Source: Escherichia phage BF15
DNA length: 64,000 bases
Direction: 5' to 3' (one strand)
Sequence record: MW822007.1
Part shown: positions 3,651 to 8,738 of the stretch, in pieces
How positions within the stretch are numbered: the first letter of the stretch is position 1
How the letters are laid out: every line of letters begins with the position of its first letter
Translations under genes and position numbers: made by a program
The notes under the pieces: model-generated
Seen by the model: the letters and a program-made list of their open reading frames with translations, nothing else
The model's database searches: none
What the model was told of the DNA's origin: nothing

Positions 3651-5069
3651 TTATGGATAGGTATAGATGATACCAGTTTCTAAAGCAGTTTTATGAATGA
3701 TGTATCCATTACGCGATTCTTGAACATCAACTTCTGGATAGTCTTTCATCATCTTCTGAAGAGTGTAACGATGCAAGTAGTATTTACTATCTGGATCTTC
3801 AGTTTTCCAATCTTTACCTTCTTCAGTCATTTTTTGGATTTCATCCATAACCCACCAACCGCACCAGATATAAGCTGAGCTACGATGTGGAAGAGGATGA
3901 ACATAAGGTAATTCACCTTCTGGTTCCGGAGCAACTTTATCAGTCACTTGAACTTGACCTGTGGCTTTAACTGTTTTACTATCATAGTCAGTTGCTGTAA
4001 CGACAGCAGTAACTTCAATAGTTTGACTTCCAATAGATGAGGTATCAACAGTATATACGTTAGTTGACCCTTCCACAGGAGAAGAATCTTTCTTCCATGA
4101 GTAAGTAATTTGTGCTGCTTCAGGTGCGCCAGTAACATTAGCAGTAAATGTAGCCGAAGCATCTTGCTGAACATTAATAGAAGGAGGAGTCAATGTAACC
4201 TGTGGATTCATTGTCTTCTTATTAACTGTCAATGATACTTCATTGGAAGTAACTTCCTTTTCATTATAATTTTCTGCAGTTACTTGGGCTACGCATTTAA
4301 TTCTTTTTACTCCACTTGTAGTTGGAGTATAGTTAAATGTAGAGTTAGTTTCTCCACCAACTTGTGAATCATCTACATACCACTGATACGTGGCAGACGC
4401 TCCATCAGGTTGAGAAGCTAAGGCAGCAGTAAATTGAACCGGGGTTCCAATTACTCCAGCAGCAGGACTAGCAGGAGTTACTGCCAAGGTAGTTGTCTGT
4501 GTCTTTTTATTAACCGTTAATGATACTTCATTGGAAGTAACTTCCTTTGCATCATAATCTGTCGCGGTTACTTGAGCTACACACTTAATTGTTTTAACTC
4601 CGCTTGTGGAAGGAGTGTAATTGAATGTAGCAGAAGTTGCTTCGCCCACAGGAGAACCGTCAACGTACCATTGATACGTAGCAGATGCGCCTGATGGCTG
4701 CGAAGCTAAGGCAGCAGTAAATTCAACGGCTGTTCCGATTACTCCTTCTGGAGGACTATTAGGAGTTATAGCTAAGGTAGTTGTTTGTGTCTTATTTTGA
4801 ACTGTGATAGTTGTACTAATTTCAGCTGTTTCAGCTTCAGAATCAGGAATAGTATTTGTTGCAACTACCTTAATAGTCTTTTGACCAGCAGGTCCTTTTA
4901 ATACATAATCAAAAGTTGCTGCTGATCCTTCTTGGGGAGCATTATCTACGCTCCAAGCATATGTAATAGTTCCACCTCCAGTTTCACCACTGGGTGTAGC
5001 AGTAAACTGCTGAGTCTGATCTATAACTCCAGTAGGTGTTTTAGGAGTTATATCAACTGTAAAAGCCAT
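3651..5069 (-). CDS. hoc: highly immunogenic outer capsid protein Hoc, extended form with an extra Ig-like domain
   Basis: 472 aa; T4-like Hoc N-terminus and C-terminal capsid-binding region; repeated Ig-like modules. Confidence 0.9.
   Translation of the reverse strand: MAFTVDITPKTPTGVIDQTQQFTATPSGETGGGTITYAWSVDNAPQEGSAATFDYVLKGPAGQKTIKVVATNTIPDSEAETAEISTTITVQNKTQTTTLAITPNSPPEGVIGTAVEFTAALASQPSGASATYQWYVDGSPVGEATSATFNYTPSTSGVKTIKCVAQVTATDYDAKEVTSNEVSLTVNKKTQTTTLAVTPASPAAGVIGTPVQFTAALASQPDGASATYQWYVDDSQVGGETNSTFNYTPTTSGVKRIKCVAQVTAENYNEKEVTSNEVSLTVNKKTMNPQVTLTPPSINVQQDASATFTANVTGAPEAAQITYSWKKDSSPVEGSTNVYTVDTSSIGSQTIEVTAVVTATDYDSKTVKATGQVQVTDKVAPEPEGELPYVHPLPHRSSAYIWCGWWVMDEIQKMTEEGKDWKTEDPDSKYYLHRYTLQKMMKDYPEVDVQESRNGYIIHKTALETGIIYTYP
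4221..4796. repeat. 288-bp tandem duplication inside hoc (two copies, about 80 percent identical)
   Basis: Unit 4509-4796 vs unit 4221-4508; encodes two consecutive 96-aa Ig-like domains starting KTQTTTLA. Confidence 0.8.
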
Positions 5070-5078
5070 AAGTTATCC

Positions 5079-5759
5079 TTATTTTAATGTTACGAAAGAA
5101 GAGTTGCGTGTTTCACGAATTAAAACTGATCCGTCACGGTTAATGTAGTAAATTAAGCTAAATAAAGTTTGGTGTGCTGACGCGTGTTCAAAACTAGTTG
5201 GGTGAGATTTCCAATCCGGAGTTTCAGCAATCCATTGATAAATCCACCAAGGAACCGTACAGAATCCTGGATTTTTTCCAATCAGCTGAAGATTTGGACT
5301 AAAGTTTTCCGGAAGAGTAAATACAGACGGCTTTTCAGATTCAATAATCTCAGCTACAGCCTGTTCGAATTTTTCTTCAACAAAAGGAGTATCTTCAATC
5401 AAAACATCGGTATTTTCAGGAATTTTATCCGTTTCTACTACTTCAATTTTAATGTCAGATTTAACCGGAGAATCAATCAGAAGTGCTGCTTCTGGATTGA
5501 CTTCTTCATCGTCATATTTTAACCCTTCTGCGGCATCAGCAGCATCGATTAAGTCTTTAATAGATAACCCATCAGTCTCTGGCATAGGTTCACTAGCGAG
5601 CTTCTGGAGGGCTTCTTCAATATCAATAACGATATTATCAAAAGATTTATTCTTTTTGACCTTTATACCAAACTGTTCAGCATATTCAGCTAATTTAGCT
5701 TTAGCTTCTTTATTATCATCAAGAGCCTTCAGCTCTGCAATATAATCTTTATCTATCAT
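5079..5759 (-). CDS. inh: inhibitor of prohead protease (Inh)
   Basis: 226 aa, same length and position as T4 Inh between hoc and uvsW. Confidence 0.75.
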   Translation of the reverse strand: MIDKDYIAELKALDDNKEAKAKLAEYAEQFGIKVKKNKSFDNIVIDIEEALQKLASEPMPETDGLSIKDLIDAADAAEGLKYDDEEVNPEAALLIDSPVKSDIKIEVVETDKIPENTDVLIEDTPFVEEKFEQAVAEIIESEKPSVFTLPENFSPNLQLIGKNPGFCTVPWWIYQWIAETPDWKSHPTSFEHASAHQTLFSLIYYINRDGSVLIRETRNSSFVTLK

Positions 5760-5772
5760 AATATTTCCTCAG

Positions 5773-5780
5773 TATAAATA
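5773..5780 (+). promoter_or_regulatory. late promoter TATAAATA upstream of uvsW
   Basis: Exact TATAAATA about 30 nt upstream of the uvsW ATG. Confidence 0.5.
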
Positions 5781-5809
5781 TAGATATATTTATTACATGG
5801 TATTTAGAC

Positions 5810-7321
5810 ATGACTGACATTAAAGTACATTTTTATGATTTTAGTCACGTGAGAATTGATTGTGAAGAAAGTACATTTCATGAACTCCGTGATTTCTTTA
5901 GCTTTGAAGCTGATGGATATCGTTTTAATCCGAAATACAAATATGGTCACTGGGATGGACGAATCCGTCTATTAGATTATAATCGCCTTCTTCCATTCGG
6001 CTTAGTTGGGCAAATTAAAAAGTTCTGTGATAACTTTGGCTATAAAGCCTGGATTGACCCGCAAATTAACGAAAAAGAAGAATTATCAAGAAAAGATTTT
6101 GATGAATGGCTTTCTAAATTAGAAATCTATTCAGGAAATAAAAGAATTGAACCACACTGGTATCAAAAAGATGCAGTGTTCGAAGGATTAGTTAATCGTC
6201 GTAGAATTCTTAATCTTCCAACATCCGCAGGTAAATCTTTAATTCAAGCTTTGCTTGCACGTTATTATTTGGAAAATTATGAAGGTAAAATTCTTATCAT
6301 TGTTCCAACAACTGCTCTGACAACTCAGATGGCTGATGACTTTGTTGACTATCGTTTATTCAGTCATGCAATGATAAAGAAAATCGGCGGCGGAGCATCA
6401 AAAGATGATAAATATAAAAATGATGCACCGGTAATTGTTGGTACATGGCAAACTGTAGTAAAACAACCAAAAGAATGGTTCTCACAGTTTGGAATGATGA
6501 TGAATGATGAATGTCATCTTGCTACAGGAAAAAGTATTTCATCTATCATATCAGGTTTAAATAACTGCATGTTCAAATTTGGTCTATCAGGTTCATTACG
6601 TGATGGCAAAGCTAATATCATGCAGTATGTTGGAATGTTTGGTGAAATATTTAAGCCAGTAACGACTTCTAAATTGATGGAAGATGGACAAGTAACTGAG
6701 TTAAAAATTAATAGTATTTTTCTTCGCTATCCCGATGAGTTCACTACTAAATTAAAGGGAAAAACTTACCAAGAAGAAATAAAAATTATTACTGGGCTCA
6801 GTAAAAGAAATAAATGGATCGCTAAATTAGCTATTAAACTTGCGCAAAAAGATGAAAACGCTTTTGTCATGTTTAAGCATGTATCACATGGTAAAGCTAT
6901 TTTCGATTTAATTAAAAATGAATACGATAAAGTTTATTACGTATCAGGGGAAGTTGATACTGAAACACGCAACGTAATGAAAACCTTAGCTGAAAATGGT
7001 AAAGGAATAATTATAGTAGCTAGTTATGGTGTATTTTCTACTGGTATTTCAGTTAAAAATCTACATCACGTTGTTTTAGCGCATGGTGTTAAATCTAAAA
7101 TTATTGTATTGCAAACAATAGGTCGCGTATTACGTAAGCATGGTTCTAAAACAATCGCAACGGTCTGGGACCTCATAGATGACGCGGGCGTAGTTTCTAA
7201 ATCAAAAACATCTTCTAAAAAATACTCGCATTTAAACTATCTTTTAAAACATGGACTTGATCGTATTCAGCGTTATGCTGATGAGAAGTTTAATTATGTG
7301 ATGAAAGAGGTTAAACTTTGA
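5810..7321 (+). CDS. uvsW: UvsW recombination/repair helicase (SF2)
   Basis: 503 aa; Walker A motif TSAGKS, DExH-like box NDECH. Confidence 0.9.
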   Translation: MTDIKVHFYDFSHVRIDCEESTFHELRDFFSFEADGYRFNPKYKYGHWDGRIRLLDYNRLLPFGLVGQIKKFCDNFGYKAWIDPQINEKEELSRKDFDEWLSKLEIYSGNKRIEPHWYQKDAVFEGLVNRRRILNLPTSAGKSLIQALLARYYLENYEGKILIIVPTTALTTQMADDFVDYRLFSHAMIKKIGGGASKDDKYKNDAPVIVGTWQTVVKQPKEWFSQFGMMMNDECHLATGKSISSIISGLNNCMFKFGLSGSLRDGKANIMQYVGMFGEIFKPVTTSKLMEDGQVTELKINSIFLRYPDEFTTKLKGKTYQEEIKIITGLSKRNKWIAKLAIKLAQKDENAFVMFKHVSHGKAIFDLIKNEYDKVYYVSGEVDTETRNVMKTLAENGKGIIIVASYGVFSTGISVKNLHHVVLAHGVKSKIIVLQTIGRVLRKHGSKTIATVWDLIDDAGVVSKSKTSSKKYSHLNYLLKHGLDRIQRYADEKFNYVMKEVKL

Positions 7322-8006
7322 ATTATAAATTAATATACGATAATTTAATTAATAGAGCCCAGAATCGGGCTCGCCTTAATGGATACACTGAAACTCATCA
7401 TATAATTCCTAGATGTATGGGCGGTACGGATGATAAGTGTAATTTGGTAGAACTAACAGCTGAAGAGCATTTTATAGCTCATAAACTTTTAGCTAAAATT
7501 CATCCAAACCATTACGGTATAATTAAAGCCGTTATATGTATGGGGATGAATTCAAAGACTCATGAAAGACACGTTAATAAATCTTACGCCTGGGAACGTC
7601 GTAAAATGGCAGAACTTCAATCAGGTGAAGGTAATCCATTTTACGGAAAACACCATACGGAAGAACATAAACAATATATGTCAAAACTCATGAAAAATCG
7701 TCCAATTACGTGGGGAAGTAAAATTAGTAAAACTAAAAGAATGAACCCAACAAAATGGACTGAAGAAGCTAAAAGATTGCATTCTATCAATCAGGTAAAA
7801 ATAATGGCATGTATGGAAGGAAACATTCCGCTAAATCTATTCAGAAAATTAAAGATAACATGCCAGATAATTCAGGAGCTAATAACCCAGCTGCTAAACC
7901 TATAGAAGTAAATGGTGTTAAGTATAAATGCATGAAAGATGCTTCTAAAGCTACTGGATTATCAATGTACAAACTAAGAATACTTAGAAAAACAGTTAAT
8001 TTATAA
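7318..8006 (+). pseudogene. HNH homing endonuclease with NUMOD-type C-terminal DNA-binding repeats, disrupted by a frameshift
   Basis: Frame 1 ORF 7318-7905 carries the HNH motif (ETHHIIPR…NLVELTAEEHFIAH) and one repeat (GEGNPFYGKHHTEEHKQYM); the next repeat and HTH tail continue in another frame (7771-8006); TTG start overlapping the uvsW stop. Confidence 0.7.
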
Positions 8007-8031
8007 GGGCTTCGGCCCTTTGGAGAAAAAG

Positions 8032-8262
8032 ATGTTACTAGAATTTAAACAATTTCTTTATGAAGCTTCTATTGATGAATTTATGGGTAAAATTGCATCA
8101 TGCCAAACATTAGAAGGTCTAGAAGAACTTGAAGCTTATTATAAGAAAAGAGTTAAAGAAACTGAATTAAAAGATACTGATGACATCTCTGTGAGAGATG
8201 CTTTGGCAGGAAAAAGAGCTGAATTAGAAGATTCAGACGATGAAGTAGAAGAAAGCTTTTAA
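8032..8262 (+). CDS. uvsW.1: UvsW.1 small acidic helical protein
   Basis: 76 aa from ATG at 8032 with GGAG RBS; the track's longer ORF uses an upstream TTG. Confidence 0.75.
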   Translation: MLLEFKQFLYEASIDEFMGKIASCQTLEGLEELEAYYKKRVKETELKDTDDISVRDALAGKRAELEDSDDEVEESF

Positions 8263-8317
8263 ATTAAAAAAGGCCCAACCAAAAAGGAAGGGCCAAAACT
8301 ATAGACTAAAGGTCACA

Positions 8318-8485
8318 CTATAGCAAAAGTTGTGTTTCATTTAATTGTTCTTCCGAACTTTCTGAAACTGGTAGTTCTTTAATGTAATTATAACAAGGCC
8401 CAGGATGTACAGGACCTTTGTCTGTTTCAACAACCAATGCAGAATCGATTGGAGTTTTACAGACAACACAAATCTTATCTGACAT
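8318..8485 (-). CDS. small Cys-containing protein (position of T4 uvsY.-2)
   Basis: 55-aa ORF translated by hand from the minus strand (MSDKICVVCKTPIDSALVVETDKGPVHPGPCYNY…); below the ORF-track size cutoff. Confidence 0.45.
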   Translation of the reverse strand: MSDKICVVCKTPIDSALVVETDKGPVHPGPCYNYIKELPVSESSEEQLNETQLLL

Positions 8486-8510
8486 GATTGTCTCCTCTAA
8501 ATTATATATC

Positions 8511-8518
8511 TATTTATA
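8511..8518 (-). promoter_or_regulatory. late promoter TATAAATA (minus strand) upstream of the small ORF at 8485
   Basis: Forward TATTTATA about 25 nt upstream of the minus-strand ATG. Confidence 0.4.
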
Positions 8519-8738
8519 TAACTCTCATATGCATATCAATGCCCATATCTTTGGAATAAAAATATTCATCAAGATATCCGGCAAATTTTCCTTTAATATA
8601 AAGTACATCTTCACCGCATGGGTGGTCAGCCAGGATACGAATATCCTGACGCTTGAGATTATACTTTTTCATTAAGAATTGAATTTCCGTTTCGAATTCT
8701 TCTTCATAATTAAAAGCATCATCAATGCTATATTTCAT
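8514..8738 (-). CDS. hypothetical protein (position of T4 uvsY.-1)
   Basis: 74-aa ORF immediately downstream of uvsY. Confidence 0.55.
   Translation of the reverse strand: MKYSIDDAFNYEEEFETEIQFLMKKYNLKRQDIRILADHPCGEDVLYIKGKFAGYLDEYFYSKDMGIDMHMRVI

What the first reader, a model, noticed from the sequence alone, without database searches (positions are those of the whole stretch)
7318..8018. Frameshifted HNH homing-endonuclease gene inserted between uvsW and uvsW.1
uvsW and uvsW.1 are separated by about 700 bp encoding an HNH nuclease motif and NUMOD-type repeats. The frame breaks near the A-run at 7794-7802: frame 1 reads …AKRLHSINQ while the next repeat SGKNNGMYGRKHSAKSIQK and the HTH tail lie in another frame. 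The start is a TTG overlapping the uvsW stop. This looks like a free-standing mobile endonuclease that is decaying, relies on a programmed shift, or sits on a homopolymer sequencing error. A GGGC-TTCG-GCCC hairpin (8007-8018) follows it.
Basis: partly seen in the sequence, partly recalled or inferred. Interest (0 to 1): 0.6.

Follow-up and report, generated by a model that had tools for sequence, protein, structure and literature searches.

The report
Frameshift-broken homing endonuclease gene in uvsW
A selfish "homing" nuclease gene that about one in ten T4-type phages carry at the end of their uvsW helicase gene has been broken here by loss of four bases from a short repeat; this is ordinary decay of a mobile gene, not a recoding signal or a sequencing slip.

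Summary
Window 7318-8006 encodes a MobE-like HNH homing endonuclease (HEG) between uvsW and uvsW.1, and its reading frame breaks after codon 159.

The lesion is not in the A-run. All 48 other phage records carrying this gene, classical T6 included, have tct(ATCA)3gg and span 689 bp, against tct(ATCA)2gg (7786-7793) and 685 bp here. The nine I fetched are intact 230-codon ORFs. One tetranucleotide unit was lost.

The frameshift separates the HNH nuclease plus first NUMOD3 repeat (195-aa ORF) from the second NUMOD3 repeat and the I-TevI-like helix-turn-helix DNA-binding tail.

The deletion is probably real. The same deletion is in an independent SRA assembly whose flanks differ by 2%. The exact 195-aa product is deposited as "homing endonuclease [Escherichia phage BF15]".

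A programmed shift is unsupported: no homologue needs one, there is no canonical slippery heptamer, and there is no downstream structure.

- The cassette (7307-7991) sits inside the last five codons of uvsW.
- It supplies a replacement UvsW end (EVKL*) and a Shine-Dalgarno sequence.
- It ends on the native uvsW codons KTVNL* and their stop.
- The GGGCTTCGGCCC hairpin is host sequence.
- Orthologues occupy the same position in three other T4-like lineages.

Verdict: an ordinary, recently pseudogenised member of a known kind.

The parts
5810..7321 (+). uvsW helicase gene (503 codons). Its last four codons and stop (EVKL*, 7307-7321) are supplied by the inserted cassette.
   Evidence: ORF list. 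Annotated uvsW/DNA helicase in relatives. C-terminus comparison.
7190..7306 (+). HEG-linked haplotype of the uvsW 3' end. A replaced patch at about 7192-7228 reads GVVSKSKTSSKKYSH, against GVKPKSANxKKKYVH in HEG-less phages. About ten mostly synonymous changes follow at 7251-7300. This is a candidate immunity or co-conversion tract and possibly the target region.
   Evidence: With 10 HEG+ and 10 HEG- loci, between-group divergence is 24.6% in the last 100 nt and 14% in the preceding 100 nt. It is about 4% elsewhere and 1.7% downstream.
7307..7991 (+). The inserted HEG cassette: 685 bp here, 689 bp in intact relatives. The boundaries are ambiguous by 3 nt (AAA).
   Evidence: The HEG-less junction reads ...AATTACGTAATGAAA|ACAGTTAATTTATAAGGGCTTCGGCCC. 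Insert coordinates were computed.
7307..7321 (+). Left end of the cassette, GAGGTTAAACTTTGA. It carries the replacement UvsW C-terminus E-V-K-L-stop, the Shine-Dalgarno GAGG for the HEG, and a TTG start overlapping the TGA stop (TTGA).
   Evidence: Sequence. The same arrangement occurs in Dhakavirus PSD2002, GAGGTCCAAATTTGA = EVQI*.
7318..7793 (+). Native-frame part of the HEG, codons 1-159. It holds the HNH nuclease domain (motif residues about 23-58, nt 7384-7491) and the first NUMOD3 repeat (aa 94-122, nt 7597-7683).
   Evidence: Pfam. Invariant H28, N42, H51 and H55 in a 45-sequence alignment. The family profile hits the McrA HNH motif at E 5e-4. T4 MobE is 66% identical over 73 aa.
7786..7793 (+). 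The lesion: (ATCA)2 where all relatives have (ATCA)3. This is a 4-nt repeat-unit deletion that puts everything downstream in the -1 frame.
   Evidence: Alignment A1. All 48 other records span 689 bp against 685 bp here. The same deletion is in Logan contig L030.
7794..7905 (+). Out-of-frame tail of the 195-aa ORF (VKIMACMEGNIPLNLFRKLKITCQIIQELITQLLNL, stop TAG 7903-7905). It has no homology to the family.
7797..7801 (+). A5 run, unchanged relative to intact alleles. It is the only place in the overlap where a single tRNA-Lys could re-pair in the -1 frame (A AAA). A second public allele (L031) has A4 here.
7791..8006 (+). Stranded C-terminal module in the -1 frame: the second NUMOD3 repeat (SGKNNGMYGRKHSAKSIQK, 7791-7847) and an I-TevI-like beta-beta-helix-turn-helix DNA-binding tail (about 7890-8003). 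The longest ATG-started ORF is 7809-8006 (65 aa).
   Evidence: Pfam. PDB 1i3j at E 0.006 with a single sequence and 5.6e-7 with the profile. Foldseek probability 1.0 to 1i3j. AF2 model pLDDT 86.7.
7989..8006 (+). Native uvsW 3' end (AAA ACA GTT AAT TTA TAA = K T V N L stop), now read as the last codons and stop of the HEG.
   Evidence: Identical to the uvsW end of HEG-less phages.
8007..8018 (+). GGGCUUCGGCCC tetraloop hairpin. This is host sequence downstream of the native uvsW stop, not part of the mobile cassette. Only UUU follows, so it is not a canonical terminator.
   Evidence: Present and invariant in HEG-less loci. It folds in the MFE and centroid structures. The terminator scan did not call it.
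8032..8262 (+). uvsW.1 (76 codons), with its own GGAG at 8022-8025.
   Evidence: Pfam UvsW-1, E 1.5e-30.

Best explanation
This is a free-standing, promoter-less HNH homing endonuclease gene of the T4 Mob class. MobE is its nearest characterised relative.

In its intact form (230 aa) it has three parts:
- an N-terminal HNH nuclease domain;
- two NUMOD3 linker repeats;
- an I-TevI-like helix-turn-helix DNA-binding tail.

The cassette sits inside the last five codons of uvsW. It brings four substitute codons plus a stop, so UvsW stays complete (EVKL* in place of TVNL*). It also brings a Shine-Dalgarno sequence and a weak TTG start that overlaps the new uvsW stop. That arrangement suggests low-level translation coupled to uvsW. 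The HEG ORF then ends on the displaced native uvsW codons and stop.

By analogy with MobE and MobA (inferred), the intact enzyme nicks or cuts the HEG-less uvsW 3' region of a co-infecting phage. Recombinational repair then copies in the cassette together with the divergent roughly 120-nt uvsW flank that makes the carrier immune.

In this window one unit of an (ATCA)3 repeat has been lost, most likely by replication slippage. Translation therefore leaves the native frame after residue 159 and ends in 36 unrelated residues. The nuclease domain is cut off from its DNA-binding module. The gene is most likely a non-homing pseudogene at the very start of decay, because everything else matches intact alleles (one other base differs from phage ZN18).

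Shown: the gene's identity, its architecture, the lesion, the population frequencies, the flank haplotype, and a second occurrence of the allele. Inferred: the nicking and homing mechanism, the location of the target, loss of activity, and replication slippage as the cause.
For: Lesion:
- The window differs from ZN18 by a 4-nt gap plus 1 mismatch, and the gap lies in (ATCA)3.
- All 48 other records span 689 bp against 685 bp here.
- All nine fetched HEG+ loci are intact 230-codon ORFs.

Family:
- PHROG 655 'homing endonuclease', E 5e-59.
- NUMOD3 above the Pfam cut-off.
- T4 MobE 66% identical over 73 aa, E 1e-32.
- The family profile hits the McrA HNH motif at E 5e-4 and the I-TevI DNA-binding domain at E 5.6e-7.
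- Invariant H28, N42, H51 and H55.

Selection on intact copies: dN/dS is 0.03-0.07.

Mobility signature:
- 48 of 498 records carry the gene.
- The flank divergence peak is 24.6% immediately upstream.
- Diversity among carriers is very low next to the gene, 0.4-0.9%.

Insertion anatomy.

The allele is real:
- The exact 195-aa product is deposited for phage BF15.
- Logan contig L030 from SRR13517625 has the same (ATCA)2 in a background 98.0% identical over 2443 nt.

Literature (PMC2988022):
- Mob genes are an HNH domain plus a distinct C-terminal DNA-binding region.
- MobA and MobE nick their targets.
- Seven of T4's twelve free-standing HEGs, mobE among them, are promoter-less cassettes.
- The mobE start overlaps the nrdA stop.
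Against: - No reads were available, so the deletion in this particular assembly is not directly verified.
- Nuclease activity, target site and homing have never been tested for this gene, as far as I could find.
- A low level of -1 slippage at A AAA (7797-7800) would give a near-native protein (INQVKNNGMYG in place of INQSGKNNGMYG), so complete loss of function is not proven.
- The truncated HNH + NUMOD3 protein could retain non-specific or weakly specific nicking.
- Whole-chain structure searches did not give a significant HNH fold match.
Confidence: 0.8

Rival explanations
1. Sequencing or assembly artefact: the phage really has (ATCA)3 and an intact 230-codon gene.
For: No complete genome in the 50,697-record phage collection shares the deletion; the best identity is 99.3-99.4%, which equals the 4-nt gap plus one mismatch. 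Short tandem repeats can be mis-called by some long-read platforms (general knowledge).
Against: The lesion is a whole 4-nt repeat unit, not a homopolymer length change. The same deletion is in an independently assembled contig from another run, SRR13517625, whose flanks differ from the window at 48 of 2443 positions. That contig is therefore a different phage. The GenBank BF15 protein has exactly this 195-aa product.
Confidence: 0.07
2. Recoding: the gene is expressed as a full-length enzyme through a -1 ribosomal shift by tRNA-Lys slipping on A AAA at 7797-7800. The shift could be programmed, or it could be an adventitious 'saviour' of the indel.
For: The -1 frame is open from 7773, so a slip at 7797-7800 would restore everything downstream. 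The result would lose only one residue and change two. The next 0-frame codon is AUA, which is rare in E. coli (general knowledge).
Against: All nine intact alleles fetched carry the same A5 run within an uninterrupted ORF, so the run was not selected as a shift site. There is no X XXY YYZ heptamer in the overlap. There is no significant downstream structure (z -1.16). The SD-like AGG lies 1-3 nt upstream, not at the 10-14 nt spacing that stimulates -1 shifts (sequence plus general knowledge). T4-type phages encode their own AUA-reading tRNA-Ile (general knowledge).
Confidence: 0.05
3. Split enzyme: the 195-aa nuclease fragment and a separately translated 65-aa DNA-binding fragment (ATG 7809) reassemble into a working two-piece endonuclease.
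For: An ATG-started ORF at 7809-8006 retains most of NUMOD3 repeat 2 and the helix-turn-helix, and gene callers do call it.
Against: The only SD-like AGG is 12 nt upstream of ATG 7809. The upstream ORF stops 100 nt further on, so re-initiation coupling is not available. The linker that tethers the domains in I-TevI-type enzymes is what sets cleavage distance (general knowledge). A comparable ICP1 gp115/gp116 split was read as an inactivated HEG by its authors (PMC10448857).
Confidence: 0.04
4. Selected inactivation or an on/off switch: the (ATCA)3-GG-TA5 stretch is a slippage-prone hotspot, and loss of HEG function is favoured or reversibly toggled.
For: Two different -1 frameshift alleles lie within 15 nt of each other in public data: (ATCA)2 in the window and L030, and A4 in L031.
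Against: There are only three instances against 48 full-length genomes. L031 is a 903-nt contig that starts 34 nt from the site, and its A4 may be a read error. Three units of a tetranucleotide and an A5 run are far below the repeat lengths of known contingency loci (general knowledge). The repeat simply encodes I-N-Q-S.
Confidence: 0.04

Closest known systems
T4 MobE (free-standing HNH homing endonuclease between nrdA and nrdB)
   Same: The N-terminal HNH domain is 66% identical over 73 aa. Both are promoter-less cassettes whose start overlaps the stop of the upstream gene: UAAUGA in mobE, UUUGA here (PMC2988022). Both have a C-terminal region distinct from the nuclease domain.
   Different: The insertion site and presumed target differ: the uvsW 3' end rather than nrdB. 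The C-terminal module differs: NUMOD3 x2 plus an I-TevI-like HTH here. The start codon is TTG. The cassette lies inside the host coding sequence and shares its stop codon. This copy is frameshifted. Activity is untested.
T4 I-TevIII, the defunct truncated HNH endonuclease whose full-length form is in RB3
   Same: It is an HNH homing endonuclease that is active in one phage and defective in a close relative (Table 1 of PMC2988022). It shows the same population-level snapshot of HEG decay.
   Different: I-TevIII is intron-encoded. T4 mobE can mobilise it in trans, according to the title of Wilson and Edgell 2009 cited in PMC2988022. This window has no neighbouring HEG that could do so, because segE is absent.
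ICP1 gp115-gp116 (IPA-HNH homing endonuclease split by a frameshift)
   Same: A frameshift separates an N-terminal HNH nuclease ORF from a downstream ORF that carries the DNA-binding domain. The authors interpreted it as an inactivated HEG (PMC10448857).
   Different: It has a different DNA-binding domain (AP2), a different phage group and a different locus.
mobE in Aeromonas phage Aeh1 nrdA and mobA in T4 gene 60/39 (HEGs inserted into coding sequence)
   Same: These HEGs are inserted within a host gene rather than cleanly between genes (PMC2988022).
   Different: Those insertions split the host protein into two functional polypeptides. Here only the last four residues are displaced and the cassette replaces them, so UvsW stays in one piece. 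The uvsW/uvsW.1 division pre-exists in all HEG-less relatives.
Fungal mitochondrial free-standing endonuclease ORFs inserted in frame at the 3' end of a host gene with a substitute C-terminus (for example Allomyces atp6; recalled from memory, not checked here)
   Same: The mobile ORF carries a replacement for the host gene's C-terminal codons, leaving the displaced native end downstream.
   Different: The endonuclease family (GIY-YIG) and the genetic system differ. There the ORF is fused in frame to the host gene, whereas here it is a separate, overlapping ORF.

Membership tests
HNH (beta-beta-alpha-metal) nuclease superfamily | Catalytic motif: His(-His) general base, structural Asn, metal-ligand His, in the order HH...N...H | tested here: met
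   ETHHIIPRCMGGTDDKCNLVELTAEEHFIAH is present. H28, N42, H51 and H55 are invariant in 45 homologues. The family profile aligns to the McrA HNH motif (6ghc, E 5e-4) and to a group II maturase HNH (E 0.009). The Pfam HNH match is only 17.2 bits, below the 21.4 cut-off.
HNH (beta-beta-alpha-metal) nuclease superfamily | Beta-beta-alpha fold of the catalytic core | tested here: inconclusive
T4 Mob-class free-standing HNH homing endonucleases | N-terminal nuclease domain homologous to a characterised Mob protein | tested here: met
   BLASTP against the T4 MobE N-terminus gives 48/73 identical, E 1e-32. tblastn hits annotated mobE in RB6, LZ7 and Ah1.
T4 Mob-class free-standing HNH homing endonucleases | Free-standing gene with presence/absence polymorphism at a fixed site among close relatives | tested here: met
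   48 of 498 Tequatrovirus records carry it, always at the uvsW end. About 446 have the empty site.
T4 Mob-class free-standing HNH homing endonucleases | Site-specific nicking or cleavage of the HEG-less allele, and over-representation in progeny of mixed infections | not testable with these tools
   There is only indirect support: a divergence peak and a carrier-specific haplotype immediately upstream of the insertion, and strong purifying selection on intact copies (dN/dS 0.03-0.07).
T4 Mob-class free-standing HNH homing endonucleases | Uninterrupted ORF joining the nuclease and DNA-binding domains (needed for a functional member) | tested here: not met
   The frame breaks after codon 159, and the DNA-binding module lies in the -1 frame.
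NUMOD3 / I-TevI-type DNA-binding module | NUMOD3 repeats and a C-terminal helix-turn-helix homologous to the I-TevI DNA-binding domain | tested here: met
   NUMOD3 scores 34.2 bits in the window ORF and 51.8 bits (two stretches) in the intact protein, against a cut-off of 20.4. PDB 1i3j matches at E 5.6e-7 with the profile and Foldseek probability 1.0. In the window this module is out of frame.
Programmed -1 ribosomal frameshift genes | The frameshift is conserved among homologues | tested here: not met
   All 9 fetched alleles and the orthologues in 3 other lineages are single ORFs. All 48 records have the intact length.
Programmed -1 ribosomal frameshift genes | Slippery heptamer X XXY YYZ in the frame overlap, plus a stimulatory element | tested here: not met
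   There is no canonical heptamer in 7773-7905, only A AAA at 7797-7800. The downstream 78 nt fold no better than shuffles (z -1.16).
Homopolymer sequencing error | The length difference lies in a homopolymer and is absent from independent data | tested here: not met
   The A5 run is unchanged and the missing bases are one ATCA unit. The same allele is in Logan contig L030, which comes from a different run and a different phage background.

The most novel reading that the evidence does not exclude
The short slippage-prone stretch (ATCA)3-GG-T-A5 may act as a dosage or on/off control of the endonuclease. Two independent -1 alleles within 15 nt exist in public data: (ATCA)2 here and in L030, and A4 in L031. 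In the (ATCA)2 allele a tRNA-Lys slip on A AAA would regenerate a near-native enzyme at low level. Together these could give a self-limiting but not dead homing gene.

A second, weaker reading is that orthologues of this HEG sit at the uvsW/uvsW.1 seam in four T4-like lineages because an ancestral insertion created the uvsW/uvsW.1 split. I found no fused UvsW-UvsW.1 protein to support that.
Probability: 0.06. Interest if true: 0.5.

Novelty: new member of a known kind. Interest (0 to 1): 0.25.

Why it matters
The practical value is mainly for annotation.
- The two ORFs at 7318-7905 and 7809-8006 should be annotated as one frameshifted HEG pseudogene.
- The uvsW end and the hairpin should be attributed correctly.

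For homing-endonuclease biology the locus offers a compact natural series at one site:
- empty susceptible alleles, about 90% of records;
- intact carriers, about 10%, including classical T6;
- freshly broken carriers: this window, L030 and possibly L031;
- empty alleles that keep the carrier-linked flank patch (OES_C-1, OES_C-2, OES_C-3 and LH2).

This is the gain, decay and loss cycle expected for selfish nucleases. It comes with a testable candidate target and immunity region about 80-115 nt upstream of the insertion.

The way the cassette repairs the UvsW C-terminus and borrows the displaced codons and stop shows how a HEG can enter a coding sequence at no cost to the host. None of this changes current understanding of these elements.

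Tried and rejected
- Allele survey by exact pattern in IMG/VR, JGI metagenomes and GTDB genomes. Only ZN18 was found, so these collections add nothing.
- Exact look-up of the 195-aa ORF in the contig index: not on record.
- Tandem Repeats Finder on the intact allele: the 12-nt (ATCA)3 is too short to be reported.
- Promoter and terminator scan of 5700-8600. Counts were no higher than in shuffles, and the 8007-8018 hairpin was not called as a terminator.
- The idea that the HEG created the uvsW/uvsW.1 split. All 75 UvsW.1 homologue clusters are 52-96 aa and none is fused to a helicase. The split is also present in every HEG-less relative.
- The idea that the SD is sequestered by an RNA hairpin, as in Aeh1 mobE. 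Only a weak 4-bp GAGG:CUUU pairing appears in the MFE structure, and it is shortened in the centroid.
- I drafted a further exact look-up of hypothetical A4, A6 and d4 products on other allele backbones. I did not run it, because variable start-codon calling would make a negative result uninformative.
Full report
**What is in the sequence**

The window is a Tequatrovirus (T4-like) segment. The gene order is hoc (3651-5069, minus strand), inh (5079-5759, minus strand), uvsW (5810-7321), the feature, uvsW.1 (8032-8262), then uvsY.-2, uvsY.-1, uvsY, 25 and 26 on the minus strand.

Between uvsW and uvsW.1 lie 710 nt.
- A TTG at 7318-7320 overlaps the uvsW TGA at 7319-7321. GAGG sits at 7307-7310, 7 nt upstream of the TTG.
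- From that TTG, frame 1 is open for 195 codons, ending at TAG 7903-7905.
- The -1 frame is open from 7773 to TAA 8004-8006. It reads ...SGKNNGMYGRKHSAKSIQK...GLSMYKLRILRKTVNL*.
- The hairpin GGGCTTCGGCCC is at 8007-8018.

**Where the frame really breaks**

Megablast against 50,697 phage records found 48 that contain the whole element. They include classical phage T6, Yersinia phage PST, HY03, ACG-C40 and ZN18. In every one the window's 685 bp correspond to 689 bp.

Alignment with ZN18 and ACG-C40 places the 4-nt gap in a tetranucleotide repeat. The relatives read tct/tca-ATCA-ATCA-ATC[A/G]-gg, whereas the window reads tct-ATCA-ATCA-gg at 7786-7793. The A-run 7797-7801 is A5 in all of them.

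The lesion is thus the loss of one ATCA unit, not a homopolymer length change. Apart from it, the window's element differs from ZN18 at one base. The nine carrier loci I fetched all encode an uninterrupted 230-aa protein. With the four bases restored, the window's protein is identical to that of HY03 and EC121, a sequence seen on 58 contigs.

**Is the deletion real?**

I had no reads, but two results argue against an artefact.
1. The exact 195-aa product, out-of-frame tail included, is deposited as QXN75883.1 "homing endonuclease [Escherichia phage BF15]" from a 167,801-bp contig. The window is therefore probably BF15, an unclassified Tequatrovirus.
2. The stranded 65-aa C-terminal ORF is called on two Logan (SRA-derived) contigs.
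   - L030, from SRR13517625, carries the same (ATCA)2. It is only 98.0% identical to the window over 2443 nt (48 mismatches), so it comes from a different phage.
   - L031, from ERR4622922, is an ACG-C40-type allele that keeps (ATCA)3 but has A4 instead of A5. This is a second -1 frameshift five bases downstream. L031 is a 903-nt contig that starts 34 nt from the site, so its A4 may be a read error.

**What the gene is**

- Pfam finds NUMOD3 above threshold: 34.2 bits in the window ORF, and 51.8 bits with two stretches in the intact protein. HNH and I-TevI DNA-binding matches are sub-threshold.
- PHROGs places it in phrog_655 "homing endonuclease", E 5e-59.
- The N-terminal 73 residues are 66% identical to T4 MobE, E 1e-32. 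tblastn hits annotated mobE and other mob genes in many T4-like phages.
- In an alignment of 45 homologues, H28, P31, C33, G36, N42, E50, H51 and H55 are invariant.
- A profile of that alignment matches the HNH motif of McrA (6ghc, E 5e-4) and of a group II intron maturase (E 0.009). Its C-terminal third matches the I-TevI DNA-binding domain (1i3j, E 5.6e-7).
- Intact alleles are under strong purifying selection, with dN/dS of 0.03-0.07 at dS of about 0.16.

The frameshift falls exactly at the start of the I-TevI-like module. The 195-aa product keeps the nuclease and the first NUMOD3 repeat. It loses the second NUMOD3 repeat and the helix-turn-helix.

**Insertion anatomy**

HEG-less Tequatrovirus genomes read ...AAT TAC GTA ATG AAA ACA GTT AAT TTA TAA GGGCTTCGGCCC TTTGGAGAAAAAGATG. 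That is, UvsW ends NYVMKTVNL*, followed by the hairpin and then the uvsW.1 SD and ATG. The T4 RefSeq record still carries the old sequence error that fuses the two genes.

In the window, uvsW ends NYVMK-EVKL* and the HEG ends ...LRILRK-TVNL*. So the cassette (7307-7991, boundaries ambiguous by AAA) lies inside the uvsW coding sequence, five codons before the native stop.
- Its left end, GAGGTTAAACTTTGA, supplies four substitute codons, the stop, an SD and the overlapping TTG start.
- The displaced native codons and stop now terminate the HEG.
- The hairpin belongs to the host.

Orthologues at 55-70% identity occupy the same position in three other T4-like lineages.
- Dhakavirus PSD2002: uvsW ends KEVQI*, the start is a TTG overlap, and the HEG ends MKQVDL*. 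That ending is the native uvsW end of a HEG-less relative, including its stop/start overlap with uvsW.1.
- Klebsiella phages such as Roth16: there are ATGA overlaps on both sides, uvsW keeps KTVNL*, and the HEG ends RNL*.
- Morganella phage Rgz1: the HEG start is an ATG that overlaps the uvsW stop (uvsW ends REIKL*), and the HEG ends LLKG* three bases before the uvsW.1 ATG.

**Signature of mobility**

I compared ten carrier loci with ten empty loci. Between-group divergence is 24.6% in the last 100 nt of uvsW and 14% in the preceding 100 nt. It is about 4% elsewhere and 1.7% downstream. Carriers are nearly identical to each other next to the gene, at 0.4-0.9%.

The carrier haplotype has two parts:
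- a replaced patch, GVVSKSKTSSKKYSH, against the widely conserved GVKPKSANxKKKYVH;
- about ten mostly synonymous changes in the final 56 nt.

PSD2002 and Rgz1 carriers also have KSK[DN]S in that patch. Four empty-site genomes (OES_C-1, OES_C-2, OES_C-3 and LH2) keep the patch but have the native last 75 nt.

This pattern is what free-standing phage HEGs leave behind: a co-converted, cleavage-resistant flank (PMC2988022; PMC10448857). It points to a target in the conserved uvsW 3' region. The enzyme's activity and its target remain inferred.

**Mechanism proposed**

- Shown: gene identity, architecture, lesion, population frequencies and flank haplotype.
- Inferred from MobE and MobA (PMC2988022): the intact enzyme is translated at a low level by coupling to uvsW. 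It nicks the HEG-less allele of a co-infecting phage, and recombinational repair copies it in.
- Inferred for this window: replication slippage removed one ATCA unit, uncoupling nuclease from DNA binding. The copy no longer homes and is at the first step of decay.

**Rivals**

- A programmed -1 shift is unsupported. No homologue needs one, there is no X XXY YYZ heptamer in the 7773-7905 overlap, and there is no downstream structure.
- An adventitious tRNA-Lys slip on A AAA (7797-7800) would give INQVKNNGMYG..., a near-native protein. Trace activity cannot be excluded.
- A two-piece enzyme is unlikely because ATG 7809 has no good ribosome-binding site.
- A sequencing artefact is unlikely for the reasons given above.
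- A slippage "switch" is suggested only by two or three alleles.

**Comparison and novelty**

The gene is a member of the Mob class of HNH homing endonucleases and is annotated as such in dozens of genomes. I found no paper describing this uvsW-end element or its frameshifted allele.

Frameshift-split HNH HEGs are known, for example ICP1 gp115/116. So are defunct HEGs such as T4 I-TevIII. The finding is therefore an ordinary, well-explained pseudogene of a known kind. The in-coding-sequence "repair and borrow" insertion geometry and its conservation across lineages are a modest descriptive addition.

Noticed in passing
window 3651-5069 (-): hoc encodes 472 aa, against 376 aa in T4. Two roughly 95-aa Ig-like units (KKTQTTTLA[IV]TP...NEVSLTVN) are nearly identical and in tandem. 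This suggests a recent duplication that added an extra Ig domain to the capsid decoration protein.
   Followed up: no
window 5760-5809: There is no segE between inh and uvsW (a 50-nt gap). T4, T6, PST, HY03, EC121, ACG-C40, RB3, AR1 and FL23 all have a segE-type GIY-YIG HEG there. uvsW is thus flanked by two independent HEG sites, and this phage has only the broken downstream one.
   Followed up: partly
window 7355-7372: A 6-7 bp GC-rich hairpin, GAGCCCAGAATCGGGCTC, lies inside the 5' coding region of the HEG. T4 mobE has an internal 5' terminator hairpin, but no U-tract follows here. The terminator scan flagged it only on the minus strand.
   Followed up: partly
L031 1-40 (Logan ERR4622922): This is an ACG-C40-type copy of the same HEG with (ATCA)3 but A4 instead of A5 (gggtaaaataatgg). 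It is a second -1 frameshift allele, five bases from the window's lesion. It may be a read error, because the contig starts 34 nt upstream.
   Followed up: partly
L029 1530-1760 (phage OES_C-3; also OES_C-1, OES_C-2 and LH2): These are HEG-less alleles that carry the carrier-linked uvsW patch (GVVSKSKTSSKKYSH) but the native last 75 nt. They could be recombinants, products of HEG loss, or candidate cleavage-resistant empty sites.
   Followed up: partly
L003 3660-3700 (T4 RefSeq NC_000866): The T4 reference record still has uvsW as a fused 587-codon CDS, because of the old sequence error at the uvsW stop and hairpin (TTTAATAAGCTTCGGCCC against TTTATAAGGGCTTCGGCCC in other phages).
   Followed up: yes
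L040 701-1397 (T4 mutant clone T4_7t1, OL964745): mobE is annotated there as two overlapping CDS of 79 and 156 codons. I did not check whether this reflects a frameshift in that clone or an annotation choice.
   Followed up: no
window 7324-7331: TATAAATT matches the T4 late-promoter core TATAAATA at 7 of 8 positions and lies just inside the HEG start. It is not conserved in the PSD2002 orthologue and is probably chance.
   Followed up: no
L020 2883-3007 (HY03); L024 2188-2280 and L027 2184-2276: The uvsY.-2/uvsY.-1 interval varies among relatives. Some genomes have an extra roughly 100-nt segment or a small 30-codon ORF that the window lacks.
   Followed up: no
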